This document shows, piece by piece, positions 24,370 to 58,492 of a stretch of 64,000 nucleotides of DNA (the first letter of the stretch is position 1; each line of letters opens with the position of its first letter). This DNA is from Squalus acanthias (taxonomy: Eukaryota): contig CM059432.1 of assembly GCA_030390025.1 (NCBI GenBank), forward strand, positions 99,822,001 to 99,886,000, given 5' to 3'. A program made the position numbers and the translations under genes. The notes below the pieces were generated by a model. It was not told where the DNA came from, searched no databases, and worked only from the letters and a program-made list of their open reading frames with translations.

Positions 24370-24900
24370 TTGTACCCGATGCACCACCTTAAACATTCAC
24401 ACCCTCCACCACCGGCGCACCGTGGCTGCAGTGAGTACCATCTACAAGATGCACTGCAGCAACTCACCAAGGCTTCTTCGACAGCACCTCCCAAATGCTC
24501 GATCCGAGTACTGAGTATTTATTGCATTATTTACATGCATTTTAATCAGCCCCCCTCAATTGCCATTGTGTTCTCATCTTGCTGTTATGGCATGTTTCAG
24601 GAAACCAGGGGAAGCGATATTAAAGTTAAAACTGTGTTGAAAGATCGCTCCAATTGAGCAATTAGCATATTTTAATTTTTTTAACTGTCTTTTTAACAGC
24701 TTTCTCAACTTGTTCTGCCACCTTTAATGTGCGTACACCTCCAGGTCTCTCTGTTCCTGCTCACCATTTAAAATTGTACCATTTATTTTATATTACCTCT
24801 CCTCATTCTTCCTACCAAAATGAATCACTTCATACTTTTCTGCGTTAAATTTCATCTTATTGTGTCTGCTTATTTCAACAGTCTGTCTATGTCCTCCTGG

Positions 24901-24999
24901 AATAAAAACAGAAAATTCTGGAAATACTCAGCAGGTCAGGCAGTGTCTGTAGAGAGAGAAACAGAGTTAACGTTTAAAGTCGATGACCCTTCGTCAGAA
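24901..24999 (-). mobile_element. Short PLE-terminal-repeat-type insertion with degenerate hammerhead
   Basis: Minus strand reads AGTT-CTGACGA-agggtcatcgactt-TAAA-CGTT-AACT. TSD is CTATGTCCTCCTGG/CTATGACCTTCTGG. Confidence 0.7.
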
Positions 25000-25239
25000 C
25001 TATGACCTTCTGGAGTCTGTTACTATCCTCCTCACTGTTAACTGCATTTCTGAGTTTTGTTTCATCTGCAAACTTTGAAATTATGCCACATCTATCCAAG
25101 TCCAGGTCATTAATATATATCAAAGATTGCAGTGGTCCCAACACCAACCCCTGGGGGGATACCACTGCACACTTTCTTCCAGTCTGAAAACAACCATTCA
25201 CCACTAAGCTCTGCTTTCTGTCCCTTAGTCAATTACATA

Positions 25240-26401: not shown

Positions 26402-27953
26402 AATAAGAACATAAGAACATAAGAAATAGGAGCAGGAGTAGGCCATTCGGCCCTTCGAGCCTGCTCCGCCATTCAATGAGATCATTGCTGATTTTCTGCC
26501 TCAACTCCATTCACTGGCCTTATCGCCAATCCCTTGATGCCCTTAGTAGTCAGAAATCTATCGACTTCTGTTTTGAATATACCCAATGACTGAGCCTCTA
26601 CAGCCCTCTGGGGTAGGGAATTCCAGAGATTCACCACCCTCTGTGTGAAGAAATTTCTTCTCATCTCAGTCCTGAATGGCCTACCCTTTATCCTGAGGCT
26701 GTGGCCCCTGGTTCTAGACTCCCCAGCCAAGGGAAACATTCTCCGTGCATCCACCCTATCAAGCCCTGTAATAATTTTATATGCTTCAATGAGATCCCCT
26801 CTTATTCTTCTGAATTCAAGAGAATACAGGCCTAGTTTACTCAATCTCTTCTCATACGACAGTCCTGCCATCCCAGGAATCAATCTCGTGAACCTTCATT
26901 GCACTCCCTCTATGGCAAGTGTATCCTTCCTTAGGTAAGGAGACCAAAATTGTACACAGTACTCCAGGTGTGGTCTCACCAAGGCCCTATATAATTGGAG
27001 TAAGACTTCTTTACTCCTGTACTCAAATCCTCTTGTAATGAAGGCCAGCATACCATTTGCCTTCCTAATGGCTTGCTGCACCTACACATTCACTTTCAGT
27101 AACTCATGTACAAGGACACCCAGGTCCCTTTGAGCATCTGCATTCCCCAATCTTTCACCATTTAGGAAATACTCTGCCTTTCTGTTTTTTCTACCAAAGT
27201 GGATAACTTCACATTTATCCACATTATAATCCATCTGCCATGTTCTCGCCCACTCACTGAGCCTGTCGAGATCCCCTTGAAGCCTCTTCACATCCTCTTC
27301 GCAACTGACACTGCCACCTAGCTTTGTGTCATCAGCAAATTTGGAAATGTTACATTTAGTCCCCTCATCCAAATCATTGATATAGATTGTGAATAGCTGG
27401 GGCCCAAGCACCGATCCTTACGGTACCCCACTAGTCACAACCTGCCATCCTGAAAAAGACCCGTTTATCCCTACTCTTTGTTTTCTGTCTGTCAACCAAT
27501 TCTCAATCCATGCTAGTATATTACCCCCAATTCCATGTGCCCTAATTTTGTTCACCAACCTCTTGTGTGGGATCTTATCGAAGGCCTTCTGAAAATCCAA
27601 ATGCACCACATCTACCGGTTCCCCTTTGTCTACTCCACTAGTTACATCCTCAAAGAACTCCAATAGGTTTGTCAAACAGGACTTCCCTTTCATAAATCCA
27701 TGTTGACTCTGCCCAATCTTACTGTTAGTTTCTAAGTGCCCAGTTATTGCATTCTTTATAATAGATTCCAACATTTTCCAACTACTGATGTGAGGCTAAC
27801 AGGTCTGTAGTTCCCTGTTTTCTCTCTCTCTCCTTTCTTAAGTAGCGTGGTTACATTTGCTATCCTCCAATCTGCAGGAATCGTTCCAGAATCTATAGAA
27901 TTTTGGAAGATGACAACCAATGCATCCACTATCCCAATGGTCACCTCTTTCAC
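26402..27953 (-). mobile_element. Younger CR1 LINE 3' half
   Basis: NYRPVSLTSVVGK, QHGFMKGKSCLTNL, LDFQKAFDK, KFADDTK and an intact CR1 tail. Confidence 0.92.
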
Positions 27954-28398
27954 TCTCTTTACCCCTCTTATTTCCTTTCTCAGTTCTCCTCTGTAATTTT
28001 TTATTCAGCTTGGTTATCTACTGTATTATGAACCTTACATTTACCATAAGCACCCTTTTCTGTTTCATTTAAGATCTTTAATCATCCAGCTTCTTCGTGG
28101 GAATGTGTCTTGTCTGTCCCCAAACTATCTCCTCTTTGAAGGCCTCCCATTGTTCATTTACTGTTTCACCAGCCAATCTTTGATTCCACTCCACTTGAGC
28201 CAGATCCTTTTTCAACTCACTAAAATTATCCCTCCTCCAGTTGAATATTTTCACATTTGATTTCTCCTTGTCCTTTTCCGTAATTACTCTAAACCTAATA
28301 ATATTGTCCATGATGCGGAGATGCCGGTGTTGGACTGGGGTGGACAAAAATGAGAAGTCGCACAACACCAGGTTATAGTCCAACAGTTTTATTTGAAA

Positions 28399-28436
28399 TC
28401 ACAAGCTTTCGGAGCTTACACCCCTTCCTCAGGTGA
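28399..28436 (-). ncRNA. Minimal type I hammerhead ribozyme
   Basis: Exact reverse complement of 31771-31808. Confidence 0.8.
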
Positions 28437-28748
28437 AGTAAAGAAATACAGAGTCGACAAAGTATATATAGATAGAGAACAATGCATGTGTAACTTACAA
28501 TGGCAGACGACTACATTTAAATCATCCTGACTGTCTATCTGCCGAGCTGTGACAAAAGGCAATCAGGTCAGCCAGGAAGGTACCACATCAAAGACATAGC
28601 AAGATACAACTGAGACAATGAGGTGGAGCCACAGGGGGTCCAATGTGTCAAAAGCCGCAGTCGGTATGGGAAACGATAAACTTTAAAATTTTTACTTTTT
28701 TACTGGGAATCACATCTGTGAACAAGCCAACGACGACTCGAGTCTGGA

Positions 28749-29340
28749 TCACGTCATGTATCGTGACATAAACCCAAGATCCCGGTTGAGGCCGTCCTCA
28801 TGAGTGCGGAACTTGGCTATCAGTTTCTGCTCGATGATTTTGCGTTGTCGTGTGTTTCTAAGACCGCCTTGGAGAACGCTTACCCGCAGATCCGAGGCTG
28901 AATGTCCTTGACTGCTGAAGTGTTCCCCGACTGGGAGGGAACACTCCTGCCTGGTGATTGTTGCGCGGTGTCCGTTCATACGTTGTCTCAGTGTCTGCAT
29001 GGTCTCGCCGATGTACCATACCGCGGTGCATTCTTTCCTGCAACGTATGAGGTAGACAACGTTGGCCGAGTCACATGAGTATGTACCATGTACCTGGTGG
29101 GTAGTGTCCTCACGTGTGATGATGGTATCTGTGTTGATGATCTGGCATGTCTTGCAGAGGTTGCCGTGGCAGGGTTGTGTGGTGTCGTGGTCGCTGTTAT
29201 CCTGAAAGCTGGGTAATTTGCTGCGAACGATGGTATTTCTGAGGTTAGGCGGCTGTTTGAAGGCAAGTAGTGGAGGCGTGGGGATGGCCTTAGCGAGGTG
29301 TTCGTCGTCATCGATGACATGTTGGAGGCTGCGAAGAAAC
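28749..29340 (-). pseudogene. PLE A C-terminal GIY-YIG endonuclease region
   Basis: CKTC, NVVYLIRC, WYIGET, RMNGHR, PVGEHF. Confidence 0.9.
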
Positions 29341-29652
29341 TGATAGCCAAGTTCTGCACTCATGAGGATGGCCTCAACCGGGATCTTGGGTTTATGTCAC
29401 GATACATGACGTGATCCAGACTCGAGTCGTCGTTGGCTTGTTCACAGATGTGATTCCCAGTAAAAAAGTAAAAATTTTAAAGTTTATCGTTTCCCATACC
29501 GACTGTGGCTTTTGACACATTGGACCCCCTGTGGCTCCACCTCATTGTCTCAGTTGTATCTTGCTATGTCTTTGATGTGGTACCTTCCTGGCTGACCTGA
29601 TTGCCTTTTGTCACACCTCGGCAGATAGACAGTCAGGATGATTTAAATGTAG

Positions 29653-31389
29653 TTGTCTGCCATTGTAAGTTACACGTGCATTGTTCTCTATCTATATATA
29701 CTTTATATACACACCCGCCAACTCAATAGACTGATCAAGACCTTCGATCCAGACCTTCAAAACATCCTACGCGCTCTCATCCCACGTACTCCCCGCGTAG
29801 GAGACTTTTACTGCCTCCCAAAGATACACAAAGCCAACACACCCGGACGTCCTATCGTATCAGGCAACGGAACCCTGTGTGAGAACCTCTCTGGGTACGT
29901 CGAGGGCATCCTGAAACCCATCGTACAGGGAACCCCCAGCTTCTGTCGCGACACTACAGACTTCTTGCAGAAACTCAGCACCCATGGACCAGTTGAACCA
30001 GGAACACTCCTCGTCACAATGGACGTATCGGCACTCTACACCAATATCCCCCACAATGACGGCATCGCTGCGACAGCTTCAGTACTCAGCACCAACAACA
30101 GCCAATCTCCGGACGCCATCCTACAACTCATCCGCTTCATCCTTGACCACAATGTCTTCACCTTCGACAACCATTTTTTCACCCAAACACACGGAACAGC
30201 CATGGGGACCAAATTCGCACCCCAATACGCCAACATCTTCATGCACAAGTTCGAGCAAGACTTCTTCGCTGCACAGGACCTCCAACCAACGCTGTACACC
30301 AGATACATCGACGACATCTTCTTCCTTTGGACCCACGGCGAAGGATCACTGAAAGGACTACACGATAGCATCAACAGGTTCCATCCCACCATCAAACTCA
30401 CCATGGACTACTCCTCAGAATCGGTTTCATTCTTGGACACACGAATCTCCATCAAAGACGGACGCCTCAGCACTTCACTCTACCGCAAGCCCACGGACAA
30501 CCTCACGATGCTCCACTTCTCCAGCTTCCACCCTAACCACGTTAAAGAAGCCATCCCCTATGGACAAGCCCTGCGAATACACAGGATCTGCTCAGACGAG
30601 GAGGAACGCGATGGACACCTACGGACACTGAAAGACGCCCTCATAAGAACGGGATATGACGCTCGACTCGTCGATCGACAGTTCCGACGGGCCACAGCGA
30701 AAAACCGCATAGACCTCCTCAGAAGACGAACACGGGACACAACCAACAGAGTACCCTACATCGTCCAGTACTTCCCCGGAGCGGAAAAACTACGCCATGT
30801 TCTTCGCAGCCTTCAACATGTCATCGATGACGACGAACACCTTGCTAAGGCCATCCCCACGCCTCCACTACTCGCCTTCAAGCAGCCGCCTAACCTCAAA
30901 AGTACCATCGTTCGCAGCAGATTACCCATCTTTCAGGAGAACAGCAACCAAGACACCACACAACCCTGCCACGGCAACCTCTGCAAGACATGCCAAATCA
31001 TGGACACAGATACCATCATTACACGTGAGGACACTACCCACCAGGTACACGGTACATACTCATGTGACTCGGCCAACGTTGTCTACCTGATACGTTGCAG
31101 TAAAGGATGCTCCAGAGCATGGTACATCGGCGAGACCATGCAGACACTGAGACAACGTATGAACGGACACCGCGCAACAATCGCCAGGCAGGAGGGTTGC
31201 CTCCCAGTCGGGGAACACTTCAGCAGCCAGGGGCATTCAGCCTCGGATCTGCGGGTAAGCGTTCTCCAAGGCGGCCTTCGAGATACACGACAGCGCAAAA
31301 TCATAGAGCAGAAACTGATAGCCAAGTTCCGCACTCATGAGGATGGCCTCAATCGCGATATCGGGTTCATGTCACGATACAGAACGTGA
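29653..31389 (+). CDS. PLE reverse transcriptase + GIY-YIG endonuclease (uninterrupted frame; the first ~19 codons are flanking sequence)
   Basis: FYCLPKIHK, GRPIVS, MDVSALYTNIP, GTAMGTKFAPQYANIFM, RYIDD, FLD, LYRKPTD, NVVYLIRC...YIGET. Confidence 0.93.
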   Translation: MSAIVSYTCIVLYLYILYIHTRQLNRLIKTFDPDLQNILRALIPRTPRVGDFYCLPKIHKANTPGRPIVSGNGTLCENLSGYVEGILKPIVQGTPSFCRDTTDFLQKLSTHGPVEPGTLLVTMDVSALYTNIPHNDGIAATASVLSTNNSQSPDAILQLIRFILDHNVFTFDNHFFTQTHGTAMGTKFAPQYANIFMHKFEQDFFAAQDLQPTLYTRYIDDIFFLWTHGEGSLKGLHDSINRFHPTIKLTMDYSSESVSFLDTRISIKDGRLSTSLYRKPTDNLTMLHFSSFHPNHVKEAIPYGQALRIHRICSDEEERDGHLRTLKDALIRTGYDARLVDRQFRRATAKNRIDLLRRRTRDTTNRVPYIVQYFPGAEKLRHVLRSLQHVIDDDEHLAKAIPTPPLLAFKQPPNLKSTIVRSRLPIFQENSNQDTTQPCHGNLCKTCQIMDTDTIITREDTTHQVHGTYSCDSANVVYLIRCSKGCSRAWYIGETMQTLRQRMNGHRATIARQEGCLPVGEHFSSQGHSASDLRVSVLQGGLRDTRQRKIIEQKLIAKFRTHEDGLNRDIGFMSRYRT

Positions 31390-31736
31390 CTTGACATCAT
31401 GGCCGGTCTTCCCAGGTGTTTTTTTTTAAAAAGACTAACACAAGAACACAAATTGACAGGATATGCAGCCAGCAGGTGGTTTGACACGTTGGACCCCCTG
31501 GGACACATCTCATTGTCTTGGCTGTGCTCTTTGTTGTAGGGAATAATGTGAATAGATTTTGTCTGGGTTTAAATTGTGAATTCTGGGAGATTCTCTCATT
31601 GCTAACTTACCTGACAAAGGAGCGAACTGCTTCGAAAGCTTGTAAAATTAAATAAATCTGTTGGACTATAACCTGGTGTTGTGCGACTTCTCATTTTTGT
31701 CCACCCCAGTCCAATGCCGGCATCTCCACATCATGA
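29705..31736 (+). mobile_element. Penelope-like element B, 5'-truncated, nested in PLE A
   Basis: Exact TSD TATATATACTTT at 29693-29704 and 31737-31748. Its 3'UTR differs from that of PLE A. Confidence 0.9.
31607..31645 (+). ncRNA. Hammerhead ribozyme motif of PLE B (core variant CTGACAA)
   Basis: TTAC-CTGACAA-aGGAGCgaactGCTTC-GAAA-GCTT-GTAA. Confidence 0.65.
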
Positions 31737-31770
31737 TATATATACTTTGTCAACTCTGTATTTCTTTACT

Positions 31771-31808
31771 TCACCTGAGGAAGGGGTGTAAGCTCCGAAA
31801 GCTTGTGA
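31771..31808 (+). ncRNA. Minimal type I hammerhead ribozyme of PLE A
   Basis: TCAC-CTGAGGA-aGGGGT(GTAA)GCTCC-GAAA-GCTT-GTGA: conserved core, GNRA-capped stem II and palindromic AAGCTT stem III. Confidence 0.82.
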
Positions 31809-33375
31809 TTTCAAATAAAACTGTTGGACTATAACCTGGTGTTGTGCGACTTCTCATAATAATATTGTGATCACTGTTTCCCAAATGCTCCCCCAGTGAA
31901 ACATACTCCACTTGCCTCACTTCATTCCCCAGAACTAAATCCAGCACTGCTTCCTTACTTGCTGAAAACATACTAATCAAGGAAGTCCTCTTTACCCTTT
32001 ACAATGCTATTTTCCCAGTTTATATTAGGATAATTGAAGTCCCCCATTATCACTACTCTAAATTTCTCGCATCTTTCTGCAACTTGCCTGCAAATTTACT
32101 CTTCTATCTCCTTCCCTCTGTTTGGTGGCCTATAGTATACATTAGCAGCATAATAGCTTCTCTATTGTTCCTTAATTCTAACCAAATAGATTTTGTCTTT
32201 GAACCCTCAAGTACATCATCCTTTTCTAGAGCTGTAACAGAATCTTTGATCAATATTGTTACCCCCCATCCTTTTATCCCTTCCCTATCTTTCCTGAATA
32301 CATTGTAGCCAGGAATATTAAGTGTTCATTCCTCCCCTTGTTTAAGCCAGGTCTCCATTATTGCCACTATATCATAATTCCATATGGCTACTTGAGCCTG
32401 CAGCTCACCAACTTTACTTACCTTGCTCCGTCTATTTATGCACATGCACTCCAATCACATCTTAGTCTGCCTTGCATTTATCCACCCCACCACCCCACCA
32501 TCCCACCCCCTCCCTTCTGATTCCTCATATTCCTGAACTACTCTTTATTCTAATACTGTTTGTTTCTCCCAGTCTTCTGTGCACCTTGTATCTCCTCTCT
32601 AATGCTTGATCTTGGTGCCCCTTCCCCCACAACACTTGTTAACCTCCCTGCGAGGACATTGATCCTAGCCCTATTGAGGTGCAACCTGTGCATCTTGTAC
32701 AGGTCCCAAGAACTGGTCCCAAAGCCCCAGGAATCTGAAGCTGCACCCCATCCCCCACCATCACCTCCACTCCGATTGATGTTTAGAAGCAGAGAATGTG
32801 CTTTTGTTTCTTAAAAGGGGTTGCTTCCCTTTATTCTTGGAACAATAGCTAAAGCAAGCATACTAATGCCGAGACTTTCTTTGGGGCTGCGCAATTATAA
32901 CTTTGCTTGAAGTGCGGCATAAACTTCAGTTTACACATGCAAACAGGGTTTCCGCTGCACTTCCGGCAATGTTATGGCAGTAAAGTGGAAGCAGCTCTAA
33001 TGAAATTTCTAGCCTGAGTGTAAAAGCCATGCCCTGTGTTTGGTTGCTATTAATGATGTAGGCTGATGAGACTCTGTTTAGCTGGTCAGTGTGTTGTACT
33101 ATATGGCCGCGATTTTCCAAGTGGAGGCGGGTTGGAGGCGGCTTTGCTGTTCAGCGGGTTCTGGTCCCGCTGCCGGTTTCAGCCTCCCTGGAATTACAAT
33201 TTTTGCTTCAGTGGGCTGATTAAGCCTGTCGTGCGTGTTACCCGGCCCAATCAGTGGGTTCAGGTCTGCTGCTCGCCTCTGCTGACGTCTTTCAGCCAGC
33301 TGCATTAAAGGGGCCCATGCAGCCTCGTTTTTGATCAATCCTATTCTGCTGCTTCTCGGTGTGGCACATCTGAAA

Positions 33376-46604: not shown

Positions 46605-47522
46605 TTAAATGAACTGAATACTGTAATCTCACACGTGCCTCCGTGGGCAGTTTCCAATCTTTCAAAAGATGACTGATTCACACTTTAATGAGATGAGGCC
46701 AAGTGCAAATCAACAAACTAGTTTGAATGGAAGAAAAATATTTGTAATAAGTCTCATCATAATTTTGTATCACTCATCGTAATAAGAAAAAATAATGCCA
46801 CACTGTCCTCATTAGTGGGCTAAGTATTCACTTTTTCTGGTCAGCTCTATCTTAAGGAAAAAGTCCTTGGCCTCTGTCTATCTGTGTTTCTCTCAGCAGA
46901 CCTTCTAGACCATGTGTTCCTTCTCCTTTGTTCCGAGCTGATACAGAAGCCATCAATTTGACCTCTGACTCTGGTCGGAATTTTCATTACCTGGGCGGGT
47001 ATGGTGCGGCCGGTTGGCGTAGCGGGTCAGAACCGCATTCTTCTTATCATCCCACTCCTCAGAGCGACTTTCTGTTAATGGTGCCTATTCAGGCAGGCCT
47101 GTGCGTTATCCGGCCCTATCAGATGGTGCGGGTCTGATGACATCATTGATGACTCATTTCCAGCCGGGATATTTAAAGCAGCCTTGGCCACATTGGATTT
47201 AAATGTTCACCCAGGAGTGTACAGGGAGGATAATTCACCATTGGTTATTGCTCAGCCTTCACAACGACAGAGGGCTGCACCCACGTTTTCAGATGACTTC
47301 CTACATATTCTGTGGAGGGAATCAGCGCACGCAGGGAGGCCCTCTTGCCTGCTGATGGGCGGAAGAGACCTCCCCAGGAGACAAAAAGAGCCTGGCTCCA
47401 AATTGCAGAGGAAGTGAACAGCAGGAATGTGGTGAGGAGGACCTGGGTGCAGTGCCGGAAGCACTTCAATGATCTCATAAGATCAGGAAAGGTGAGTGCA
47501 AAGCCACACTCACCTTCATCCT

Positions 47523-47733
47523 AAATAAAAACAGAAAATGCTGGAAACACTCAGCAGGTCAGGCAGCATCTGTAGAGAGAGAAACAGAGTTAACGTTTCA
47601 GGTCAATGACCCTTCAGGTCATCGACCTGAAACGTTAACTCTGTTTCTCTCTCCACAGATGCTGCCTGACCTGCTGTATATTTCCAGCATTTTCTGTTTT
47701 TATTTCAGATTTCCAGCATCTGCAGTATTTTGC
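47523..47733. mobile_element. Hairpin (inverted) short PLE-terminal-repeat-type insertion
   Basis: About 90-bp inverted arms and an exact 16-bp TSD CACTCACCTTCATCCT at 47507-47522 and 47734-47749. Confidence 0.85.
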
Positions 47734-48341
47734 CACTCACCTTCATCCTGCTGTGTCTCTCATCACATCCCCATCACTCTGCCTTCCCAAGCCTACTCCT
47801 GCTCATCATTAATCACACTAACATACCTTACACGTCCACCCATCCCTCTCTCTCTATCTATTTATTCACATCCCCCTCTGAGTAAACACCCCTCACACTC
47901 ACCCTCACCCTAATGTAATCATAACAACTAACATGACACAAGGAGGTCATTTGGGATTGGCACTTTGGCATTGGCACCATACTCCCTCTGAGTCACCCTC
48001 TAAAGATGTAACCCACACATTCCATACACTCATGTCATCACTCTCACTTAAACTTCTCTTCTTTCTCTCCTTGCAGGAGAAACGAGTTCACAATAACAGG
48101 GAGAGAACCGGAGATGGCCCTCCATCCTTCACCACTTTGACAGCAGCAGAGGAGGTCGCCCTGGAGGTGTCAGGAGTTGCGGAGCAGCTGGCGGTGGAAG
48201 ACGGAGAGATGGGGACCTCTCAGCAACCTGGTGATAGAATTACATCTCATACAGCCACATGGTATACATCAGTCACTCACATGGTGACATGTGTCAGCAG
48301 CCAGTGAATGTTCATCATGTGCGTAATGATATTGGTAGCCA

Positions 48342-57461: not shown

Positions 57462-57597
57462 GAGAAGACAGAAAATGCTGGAAAAACTCAGCAGGTCAGG
57501 CAGCATCCGTGGAGAGAGAAACAGAGTTCACATCTCAGGTTGAGCTGCTGAGTATTTCCAGCATTTTATGCTTTTATTTCAGATTTAAAGCATCCGC
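57462..57597. mobile_element. Short inverted PLE-terminal-repeat-type insertion
   Basis: aaaatgctggaaaaactcagcag ... ctgctgagtatttccagcatttt. Same family as 47523. Confidence 0.65.
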
Positions 57598-58340: not shown

Positions 58341-58492
58341 AAAAAGCAAAATACTGCGGATGCTGGAAATCTGAAATAAAAACAGAAAATGCCGGAAATA
58401 CTCAGCAGGTCAGGCAGCATCTGTGGAGAGAGAAACAGAGTTAGCGTTTCAGGTCGATGACCCATCACCAGAACTGAAAAAAGTTAGAGATG
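58341..58492 (-). mobile_element. Short PLE-terminal-repeat-type insertion with degenerate hammerhead
   Basis: Minus strand reads GTT-CTGGTGA-tgggtcatcgacct-GAAA-CGCT-AAC. TSD TATTACGTT at 58332 and 58493. Confidence 0.7.

What the first reader, a model, noticed from the sequence alone, without database searches (positions are those of the whole stretch)
28296..31868. Penelope inside Penelope: two PLE subfamilies nested, each with its own exact 12-bp TSD
Seen in sequence: the outer element (TSD TAATAATATTGT) has an inverted two-arm layout. Its plus arm is cut at TATATATACTTT by a second PLE with a similar ORF but a different 3'UTR, and the minus arm (28441-28480) preserves the empty site. The insertion lies ~25 nt upstream of the outer hammerhead, so the locus ends in two tandem hammerhead + tail units (31607, 31771). 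Established: PLEs make 5' inversions and tandem pLTRs. Inference: self-targeting of the AT-rich pLTR site could build chimeric tandem pLTR structures from two subfamilies.
Basis: partly seen in the sequence, partly recalled or inferred. Interest (0 to 1): 0.72.

Follow-up and report, generated by a model that had tools for sequence, protein, structure and literature searches.

The report
Penelope retroelement nested in its relative
One jumping gene (a Penelope-like element) sits inside the end of a close relative, which in turn sits inside an older LINE; the nesting is real and cleanly marked in the sequence, but it is likely an ordinary result of these elements' known preference for AT-rich DNA rather than a new self-targeting system.

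Summary
The anatomy is confirmed. A fold-back Penelope-like element (A; 12-bp TSD 28296/31857) splits a CR1-type LINE. Its short arm is split by a 5'-truncated relative (B; 12-bp TSD 29693/31737), and A's long arm keeps the empty site (28459-70). Both are Neptune-type (CX4CxxC linker, GIY-YIG): ORFs 92.5% alike, tails 90/99, 3'UTRs alike only in islands.

B hit the only (TA)4 run of A, a TATA-like box 26 nt before the hammerhead core. That fits the AT/(TA)n preference reported for such elements. A Penelope inside a Penelope (Adineta Pen2a in Pen3) and nicking of the element's own pLTR (Anolis PAc) are already in print. The product is not a working tandem pLTR: no ORF follows B's tail, B lacks about 320 N-terminal residues, and B's hammerhead reads A at the conserved G8.

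Enrichment at this site could not be tested: no genome is held and the one read-laying run was swamped by repeats. It did show that 96-98% of family depth carries G where this copy has its fourth TA's A. The scan noted fold-back PLEs and PLE hot spots elsewhere in this genome, but my look-ups returned no PLE-in-PLE note.

The parts
27418..28295 (-). CR1-type LINE, part downstream of the PLE insertion (endonuclease-RT linker and RT, with stops); 'CR1' is my label from recalled family features
   Evidence: RVT_1 E 2e-13 at 27418-27792
28296..28307 (+). Left copy of the 12-bp TSD of element A
28308..29338 (-). Long (minus) arm of PLE A, 1031 nt: last 196 codons of the ORF (28749-29338), 3'UTR, hammerhead motif, full tail
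28308..28350 (-). 42-43 nt tail extension present on this arm of A and on B, absent from the plus arm of A
28399..28436 (-). Minimal hammerhead motif of A with intact CUGANGA...GAAA core
   Evidence: no Rfam hit; cleavage untested
28459..28470 (-). Uninterrupted (empty) copy of B's target; the only (TA)4 run in the arm; fits the TATA-box consensus
29335..29338 (.). Fold-back junction, 4-nt overlap shared by both arms
29335..29704 (+). Short (plus) arm of A, first part: last ORF codons to 29414 and 3'UTR up to the target
29693..29704 (+). Left copy of the 12-bp TSD of element B
29705..29708 (+). Four non-element bases at B's 5' junction (AT dinucleotides, possibly copied from the target)
   Evidence: table 7 (one contig of run X7 continues with other letters before 29709); (P0001 match starts at 29710)
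29709..31389 (+). 5'-truncated, stop-free ORF of PLE B (559 codons from 29710): RT, CX4CxxC linker, GIY-YIG endonuclease; first in-frame ATG at 30019, inside the RT
31390..31606 (+). B-type 3'UTR, about 95 nt shorter than A's, no TATA-box match
31607..31645 (+). Hammerhead-like motif of B; A instead of the conserved G8 at 31616
31646..31736 (+). B terminal segment and full tail (90 of 99 nt identical to A over 31638-31736)
31737..31748 (+). Right copy of the 12-bp TSD of element B
31749..31856 (+). Short arm of A, second part, with hammerhead motif 31771-31808; stops 42-43 nt before the tail end
31857..31868 (+). Right copy of the 12-bp TSD of element A
31869..32325 (-). CR1-type LINE, part upstream of the insertion (endonuclease region)
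   Evidence: (weak Exo_endo_phos_2)

Best explanation
This is a three-layer nest, LINE > Penelope-like element A > Penelope-like element B, each PLE bounded by its own exact 12-bp duplication, likely made by two separate target-primed insertions, the second of which probably landed on A's TA run through the family's general AT/(TA)n preference and left a product predicted to be inactive. Step 1 (order shown, chemistry inferred from Anolis PAc): the A protein nicked both strands of an AT-rich LINE site 12 nt apart. Both DNA ends primed reverse transcription on A RNA at two start sites 42-43 nt apart. The cDNAs stopped after 1031 and 479 nt and were joined head-to-head through a 4-nt overlap. 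Step 2 (order shown): B later nicked the TA run in A's short arm, copied about 2030 nt from its tail, and was closed with four extra bases and a 12-bp duplication. Step 3 (inferred): the two adjacent hammerhead-plus-tail units are a by-product. They follow because the TA run lies 22-26 nt before A's hammerhead and every PLE insertion ends in its own hammerhead and tail.
For: Exact, unique TSD pairs and an internal empty site. LINE frame continuous across the empty outer site. Arms differ at 7 of 479 sites, 6 CpG-type. Both arms and both inner TSD copies carry A at a position where 96.5-98.2% of laid depth reads G in four runs (28463), so the arms likely come from one template and B came afterwards. 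A tail on one arm only and an inverted truncated copy are the described PLE layout (PMC8557442 passages; PMC3846280 section 6). 14 of the 15 joints shown (of 391) in public contigs are similar fold-back joints. PAc cuts and extends both strands, prefers AT-rich DNA and has two RT start sites that delimit the tail (PMC11167929). B has the CX2-5CxxC linker that PMC8557442 links to (TA)n insertion bias. Both empty targets have 11 of 12 A/T, and A's target is in a LINE, not a pLTR. Precedent: Pen2a inserted in an AT-rich segment of Pen3 with a 9-bp TSD (PMC3846280).
Against: B hit the one (TA)4 run, which accounts for only 2 of the 20 AT-rich 12-mers in the arm, and missed the longer 27-nt A/T patch. 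TA runs of 8 nt or more are rare in the flanks (2 in 60 kb), so the choice looks more specific than plain AT content. The two empty targets resemble each other more than AT-rich sites usually do in one of five flank widths tried (16 of 28 matches, p 0.033; p 0.14-0.34 for the other four). Both are C-[12 nt]-G, a flank pair seen at 28 of 1141 AT-rich 12-mers (post hoc, n=2). PMC11167929 itself proposes nicking of the element's own pLTR. No independent contig confirmed the junctions.
Confidence: 0.72

Rival explanations
1. Real hot spot: the endonuclease of this family has a longer sequence preference (a C-[AT-rich 12]-G pseudo-palindrome) or recognises the shared terminal repeat, so A's TATA-like box is a preferred landing site for B and B-in-A junctions recur at this base across the genome.
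For: The hit is the single (TA)4 run of the arm. The two targets share C..G flanks and 16 of 28 positions. A and B share a 90/99 tail. D. virilis Penelope EN needed the tail sequence to recognise and cut plasmid DNA, and PAc cut its own ORF-pLTR junction (as stated in PMC11167929). An earlier scan note (e1-9979726, unchecked) reports motif-driven PLE hot spots in this genome.
Against: n=1. The target likeness is not significant for 4 of 5 flank widths against AT-rich controls. B entered the arm that lacks the tail extension, not the arm that has it. A's own insertion is in a LINE. Most family copies carry G in the run, so this copy's site is atypically TA-rich.
Confidence: 0.2
2. The A-B-A stretch was copied ready-made: the short arm was reverse-transcribed from an RNA of another locus that already held B inside A, so the nesting happened elsewhere and earlier.
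For: 5 of the 6 CpG-type differences lie in the plus arm. PLEs can carry other sequence between pLTRs (PMC3846280 passages).
Against: Both arms share the minority A at 28463/29700, and only 1 of 479 positions differs by a non-CpG change. A 5:1 split of six is within chance (two-sided about 0.2, my arithmetic).
Confidence: 0.05
3. Assembly artefact: a collapse or mis-join of two abundant repeats.
For: Both families are very abundant (summed contig depth 1e5-1e6), and no listed contig bridged the junctions.
Against: A mis-join would not create two exact 12-bp duplications at the element boundaries, four non-element bases at one junction, an internal empty site and a continuous LINE frame. The B/A junction lies outside the sequence the two families share.
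Confidence: 0.03

Closest known systems
Pen2a_Av inserted in Pen3 of Adineta vaga (Arkhipova et al. 2013, PMC3846280; section 6 read whole, passages of the Discussion)
   Same: A Penelope-like element as a secondary insertion in another Penelope family, with its own TSD (9 bp), in an AT-rich segment that the authors call an attractive target. Inverted pLTR, tail on one side only, and a TATATATA box shortly before a TCACT-like sequence in the pLTR.
   Different: There the insert is in the coding N-rich segment and in opposite orientation. Here it is in the terminal repeat, in the same orientation, between two subfamilies 92.5% alike, and the locus keeps its own empty-site control.
PAc, Poseidon-type PLE of Anolis carolinensis (Frangieh et al. 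2024, PMC11167929; parts 1-2 of 4 of the main text read)
   Same: [quoted passage not shown]
   Different: PAc belongs to the clade without the CX2-5CxxC linker, and its hammerhead and tail overlap the ORF start. Here the linker is present and the tail is 42-43 nt.
Neptune-clade PLEs (as defined in Craig et al. 2021, PMC8557442; passages and four supplement rows seen)
   Same: CX2-5CxxC linker before a C-terminal GIY-YIG with two internal cysteines; long spacer after the linker as in the Neptune rows; inverted truncated copy plus tail; hypothesised microsatellite bias.
   Different: No RT tree with named references was built. These shark subfamilies were not found by name in searches.
Minimal hammerheads of metazoan PLEs (Cervera and de la Pena 2014, PMC4209133; passages)
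   Same: 4-bp stem I, an extra base before stem II, palindromic positions around stem III, dual copies on opposite strands a few hundred to a few thousand nt apart.
   Different: Two copies from different subfamilies lie 164 nt apart on the same strand; one has A at G8.

Membership tests
Canonical endonuclease-positive Penelope-like elements | Single ORF with RT followed by a C-terminal GIY-YIG endonuclease | tested here: met
   B: RVT_1 E 1.2e-8; RT and GIY-YIG motifs with R, E, N residues located by pattern. Pfam itself gave no GIY-YIG hit on B. A keeps the last 196 codons, 89% identical to P0001.
Canonical endonuclease-positive Penelope-like elements | CCHH motif with two cysteines between GIY and YIG | tested here: met
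   Two Cys inside the motif at residues 477-495 and His residues downstream; definition from PMC8557442.
Canonical endonuclease-positive Penelope-like elements | Terminal repeat (pLTR) direct or inverted, with a 30-40 bp tail at one end only | tested here: met
   Inverted arms; extension of 42-43 nt on one arm, slightly longer than the quoted range.
Canonical endonuclease-positive Penelope-like elements | Minimal hammerhead motif in the pLTR | tested here: inconclusive
   A meets the motif; B has A at G8; no Rfam hit; cleavage untested.
Canonical endonuclease-positive Penelope-like elements | Short target-site duplication | tested here: met
   12 bp for both elements.
Neptune clade | CX2-5CxxC linker between RT and EN, with the long spacer of Neptune rather than the short one of Nematis | tested here: met
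   CX4CxxC at residues 439-447. 23 residues to the next Cys by my count, against long spacers in the 2 Neptune rows and short ones in the 2 Nematis rows shown (4 of 62 name occurrences seen).
Neptune clade | RT phylogeny with named Neptune references | not tested
   No named reference proteins were available as stored sequences.
Penelope/Poseidon clade | Absence of the CX2-5CxxC linker | tested here: not met
   The linker is present.
Partial-tandem (pLTR-ORF-pLTR) active PLE unit | Truncated copy upstream whose tail runs on into a full-length ORF downstream | tested here: not met
   B's tail is followed by a TSD and 108 nt of A. B's ORF starts at about residue 324 of an 881-aa homolog; first in-frame ATG at 30019. 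Definition from PMC2377424.
L1-type twin-priming 5' inversion (definition recalled) | Inverted segment comes from a different, upstream part of the RNA | tested here: not met
   The short arm duplicates 479 nt of the long arm.
Target-specific retrotransposon aimed at another element | Recurrent independent insertions at one base of the target, above matched controls | not testable with these tools
   No genome held; 0 matches of the tail in three collections; the read-laying tables were cut to the best-supported rows.

The most novel reading that the evidence does not exclude
The TATA-like box just before A's hammerhead is a true hot spot for the sister subfamily B, through a C-[AT-rich 12]-G endonuclease preference or recognition of the shared tail. 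B-in-A junctions would then recur genome-wide. They would put A's promoter-like 3'UTR directly in front of B's ORF and give a route for 3'UTR/promoter exchange between PLE subfamilies, which would fit near-identical ORFs and tails around barely alignable UTRs. The majority G allele in the TA run would be an escape from self-insertion.
Probability: 0.12. Interest if true: 0.6.

Novelty: new member of a known kind. Interest (0 to 1): 0.27.

Why it matters
As it stands this is a clean teaching example. One locus shows the fold-back layout, the one-sided tail, two 12-bp staggered cuts and its own empty-site control, in line with the two-strand, two-start-site model from Anolis PAc, here for a Neptune-type element. 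It would matter more if the site proved a hot spot. How PLEs regenerate and exchange their pseudo-LTRs is an open question (PMC2377424 says no obvious mechanism is known beyond a tendency to form tandems), and insertion into a sister's TATA-like box would be a countable in vivo test of the proposed nicking of the own pLTR.

Tried and rejected
Genome-wide count of B-in-A junctions: not possible, no genome is held for this window. Exact search for a 24-nt tail word gave 0 stretches in viral, prokaryote-genome and metagenome collections. Protein-based locus searches returned 80 metagenome and 28 genome-contig loci and none from viral contigs. These are distant PLEs (best-segment identity 62% for one, 48% or less for the rest); none of the 38 blastn hits touched the UTR or tail, so they say nothing on this target.

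A conserved TATA box before the hammerhead in relatives: 2 of 15 distinct motifs with 60 nt upstream had a match, at 38 and 44 nt, so no support.

Laying contigs of four runs: no listed piece bridged a junction and no empty-allele joint was among the 15 of 391 joints shown. This is no evidence either way. Summed depths are not copy numbers.

A shared target consensus derived from the two sites is circular for those sites and was not used as evidence.

An intramolecular A/B hammerhead dimer: both motifs share the palindromic GAAAGCUU, but B has A at G8 and one of the two cross-paired stem I helices would hold a C-A mismatch (read from sequence), so I rate it unlikely. Whether the G8 change is private to this copy is unknown, because that row was not among the 40 of 176 shown. 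Folding z-scores of the motifs were not significant (-0.4 to -1.1), as expected for such short motifs.

Literature: searches found one PLE-in-PLE precedent and no study of site enrichment or of shark Neptune elements. The library holds open-licence papers only, and Arkhipova 2006 and Pyatkov 2004 were seen only as cited by others. The retrozyme preprint (10.64898/2026.07.22.740005, passages) had nothing on nesting; its supplements are closed. Look-ups of earlier findings by sequence and by nearness returned nothing.
Full report
Observation. Two exact 12-bp direct repeats bound the whole locus (28296-28307, 31857-31868) and two more bound an inner 2-kb block (29693-29704, 31737-31748). Neither word occurs elsewhere in the window, except that the inner word occurs once on the minus strand at 28459-28470. 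The chance of a fixed 12-mer at a fixed boundary is about 1e-7. With the inner block and one duplication removed, the plus arm is 479 nt and differs from the minus arm at 7 positions, 6 of them CpG-type transitions, so the minus arm is an internal empty-site control. With the whole locus and one duplication removed, the flanking LINE frame runs 79 codons without a stop. The flanks give an RT hit (E 2e-13) and a weak endonuclease hit (E 0.05). The nest therefore has three layers: a CR1-type LINE (label recalled), PLE A, PLE B.

What the elements are. B has a stop-free frame to 31389 with an RT hit (E 1.2e-8), a CX4CxxC linker and a GIY-YIG motif with two internal cysteines. Its nearest proteins are from sharks (91% to a Heptranchias perlo protein; 2890 hits among 8000 candidates scored, 120 listed). 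It matches residues 324-880 of an 881-aa homolog, so about 320 residues are missing, and the first in-frame ATG lies inside the RT. The linker excludes the Penelope/Poseidon clade, and its spacing resembles the two Neptune rows rather than the two Nematis rows I saw in the supplement of PMC8557442. I call it Neptune-type without a tree. A keeps only the last 196 codons. A and B differ at 44 of 590 nt (dS 0.19, dN 0.049), share 90 of 99 terminal nt, and have 3'UTRs of 316 and 222 nt as cut in the script. The UTRs align better than all 200 shuffles but only in islands. 'Two subfamilies' is fair.

The outer layout. The long arm (1031 nt, minus) ends in a full tail. The short arm (479 nt, plus) is a second copy of the same 3' end that stops 42-43 nt earlier, and the arms meet at a 4-nt overlap. 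This is the described PLE fold-back with a one-sided tail (PMC8557442 passages; PMC3846280 section 6), not an inversion of upstream sequence. It fits the PAc data, where both target strands are cut and extended and two RT start sites delimit the tail (PMC11167929, parts 1-2 of 4). That the same chemistry acted here is inference. In public contigs, 14 of the 15 joints shown (of 391) join the minus arm to a plus-oriented copy, so fold-backs are common in this family group. At 28463, 96.5-98.2% of the laid depth in four runs (three samples at most) reads the other base, whereas both arms and both inner duplications of this locus agree with each other. The arms thus share a minority allele and likely one template.

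The inner target. B's site is the only (TA)4 run in A's 1031-nt arm. It is one of three AT-rich patches and holds 2 of the 20 twelve-mers with at least 11 A/T; the 27-nt A/T patch was not hit. It matches the TATA-box consensus with either allele and lies 26 nt before a TCACC, much like the putative TATA box and initiator in Adineta Pen2a. B's UTR has no such match, only 2 of 15 distant hammerhead-bearing motifs had one, and the D. virilis promoter is TATA-less (PMC2377424 passages), so a promoter role is a guess. A's own target is also 11/12 A/T but is not a TA run and lies in a LINE. The two targets share C..G flanks (28 of 1141 AT-rich 12-mers do). They match at 16 of 28 positions (p 0.033 against AT-rich controls), but at four narrower widths p is 0.14-0.34. 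This is a post hoc hint from two sites.

Chance expectation (rough inference). TA runs of 7 nt or more occur 4 times in 60 kb of flank. Summed contig depth in run X1 is 2.3-4.3e5 over A-specific UTR bins and 1.2e6 over a B-specific bin, against 35-47 for 4 of the 8 divergent contigs listed. The tool warns these are not copy numbers, but they point to thousands or tens of thousands of copies each. A's TA runs could then be a few per cent of such sites, and a general (TA)n bias, which PMC8557442 links to this linker, would by itself yield many B-in-A events.

The tandem claim. Two hammerhead-like units do follow each other, at 31607 and 31771. But a working partial tandem has a truncated copy upstream and a full ORF continuing from its tail. 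Here B's tail is followed by a duplication, 108 nt of A and the LINE. B's core has A at G8; in PAc a G8C change abolished cleavage, and G8A was not tested there. Rfam found nothing in the window at gathering thresholds. The double end follows automatically from any same-strand PLE insertion just upstream of another's hammerhead. The one feature worth keeping is on the other side: A's UTR up to the TATA-like box now abuts B's ORF. With a less truncated insert this would be a promoter-ORF fusion between subfamilies (inference).

Prior art. A Penelope inserted in another Penelope family with a 9-bp TSD, ascribed to AT-rich target preference, is in PMC3846280. Nicking of the element's own pLTR is proposed in PMC11167929. 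Minimal hammerheads in PLE repeats, including Neptune, are in PMC4209133 (passages). Searches found no study counting PLE insertions at a pLTR site. Earlier scan notes on this genome report fold-back PLEs, true tandems, Tx1 and Harbinger elements that hit PLE ends, and a PLE with motif-driven hot spots. I could check none of their genome-wide claims, and none of the listed notes described PLE-in-PLE.

What could not be done. No genome is held, the tail word was absent from three collections, and the 108 fetched loci share no UTR or tail sequence. The one read-laying run listed no contig across a junction. Enrichment and assembly confirmation remain open.

Verdict. A real, well-preserved nested insertion of known kind. 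Best reading: two independent insertions guided by AT/(TA)n preference, with a product predicted to be inactive (0.72). Rival readings: a true hot spot (0.2), a ready-made chimera (0.05), an artefact (0.03). Interest 0.27.

Noticed in passing
window 28295/31869 and 29692/31749: Both empty targets are a 12-nt core with 11 A/T flanked by C on the left and G on the right (28 of 1141 AT-rich 12-mers in the flanks have this pair), a possible symmetric preference of a dimeric endonuclease.
   Followed up: partly
window 28463 (and 29700, 31744): This A copy has a perfect (TA)4 run; 96.5-98.2% of laid depth in four runs reads G at the last base of the run.
   Followed up: partly
window 27840 joined to 28313 in public contigs: A joint between the LINE and a PLE tail occurs in three runs at depth 116-186 (table 5), suggesting another PLE insertion site present in several LINE copies or an amplified one.
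   Followed up: no
window 28433-28748 vs 31390-31611: The A and B 3'UTRs share only islands and differ by about 95 nt in length, while ORF dS is 0.19 and the tails are 90/99 alike. Loose ends near 31530 in two runs resemble A's UTR, hinting at intermediate or mosaic subfamilies.
   Followed up: partly
window 28308-28311 and 31733-31736: Both full tails end at or just after an ATG, which may be the ORF start of the next tandem unit; not tested.
   Followed up: no
window 47507-47749: A second repeat family forms a short fold-back with an exact 16-bp, non-AT-rich duplication. Other copies lie at 24897-25001 (degenerate hammerhead-like motif on the minus strand), 57465-57597 and 58346-58475.
   Followed up: partly
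L081-L108: 28 loci with PLE-like ORFs occur in prokaryote genome contigs, 19 of them in one Stappiaceae-labelled assembly; likely host-animal DNA in those assemblies.
   Followed up: no
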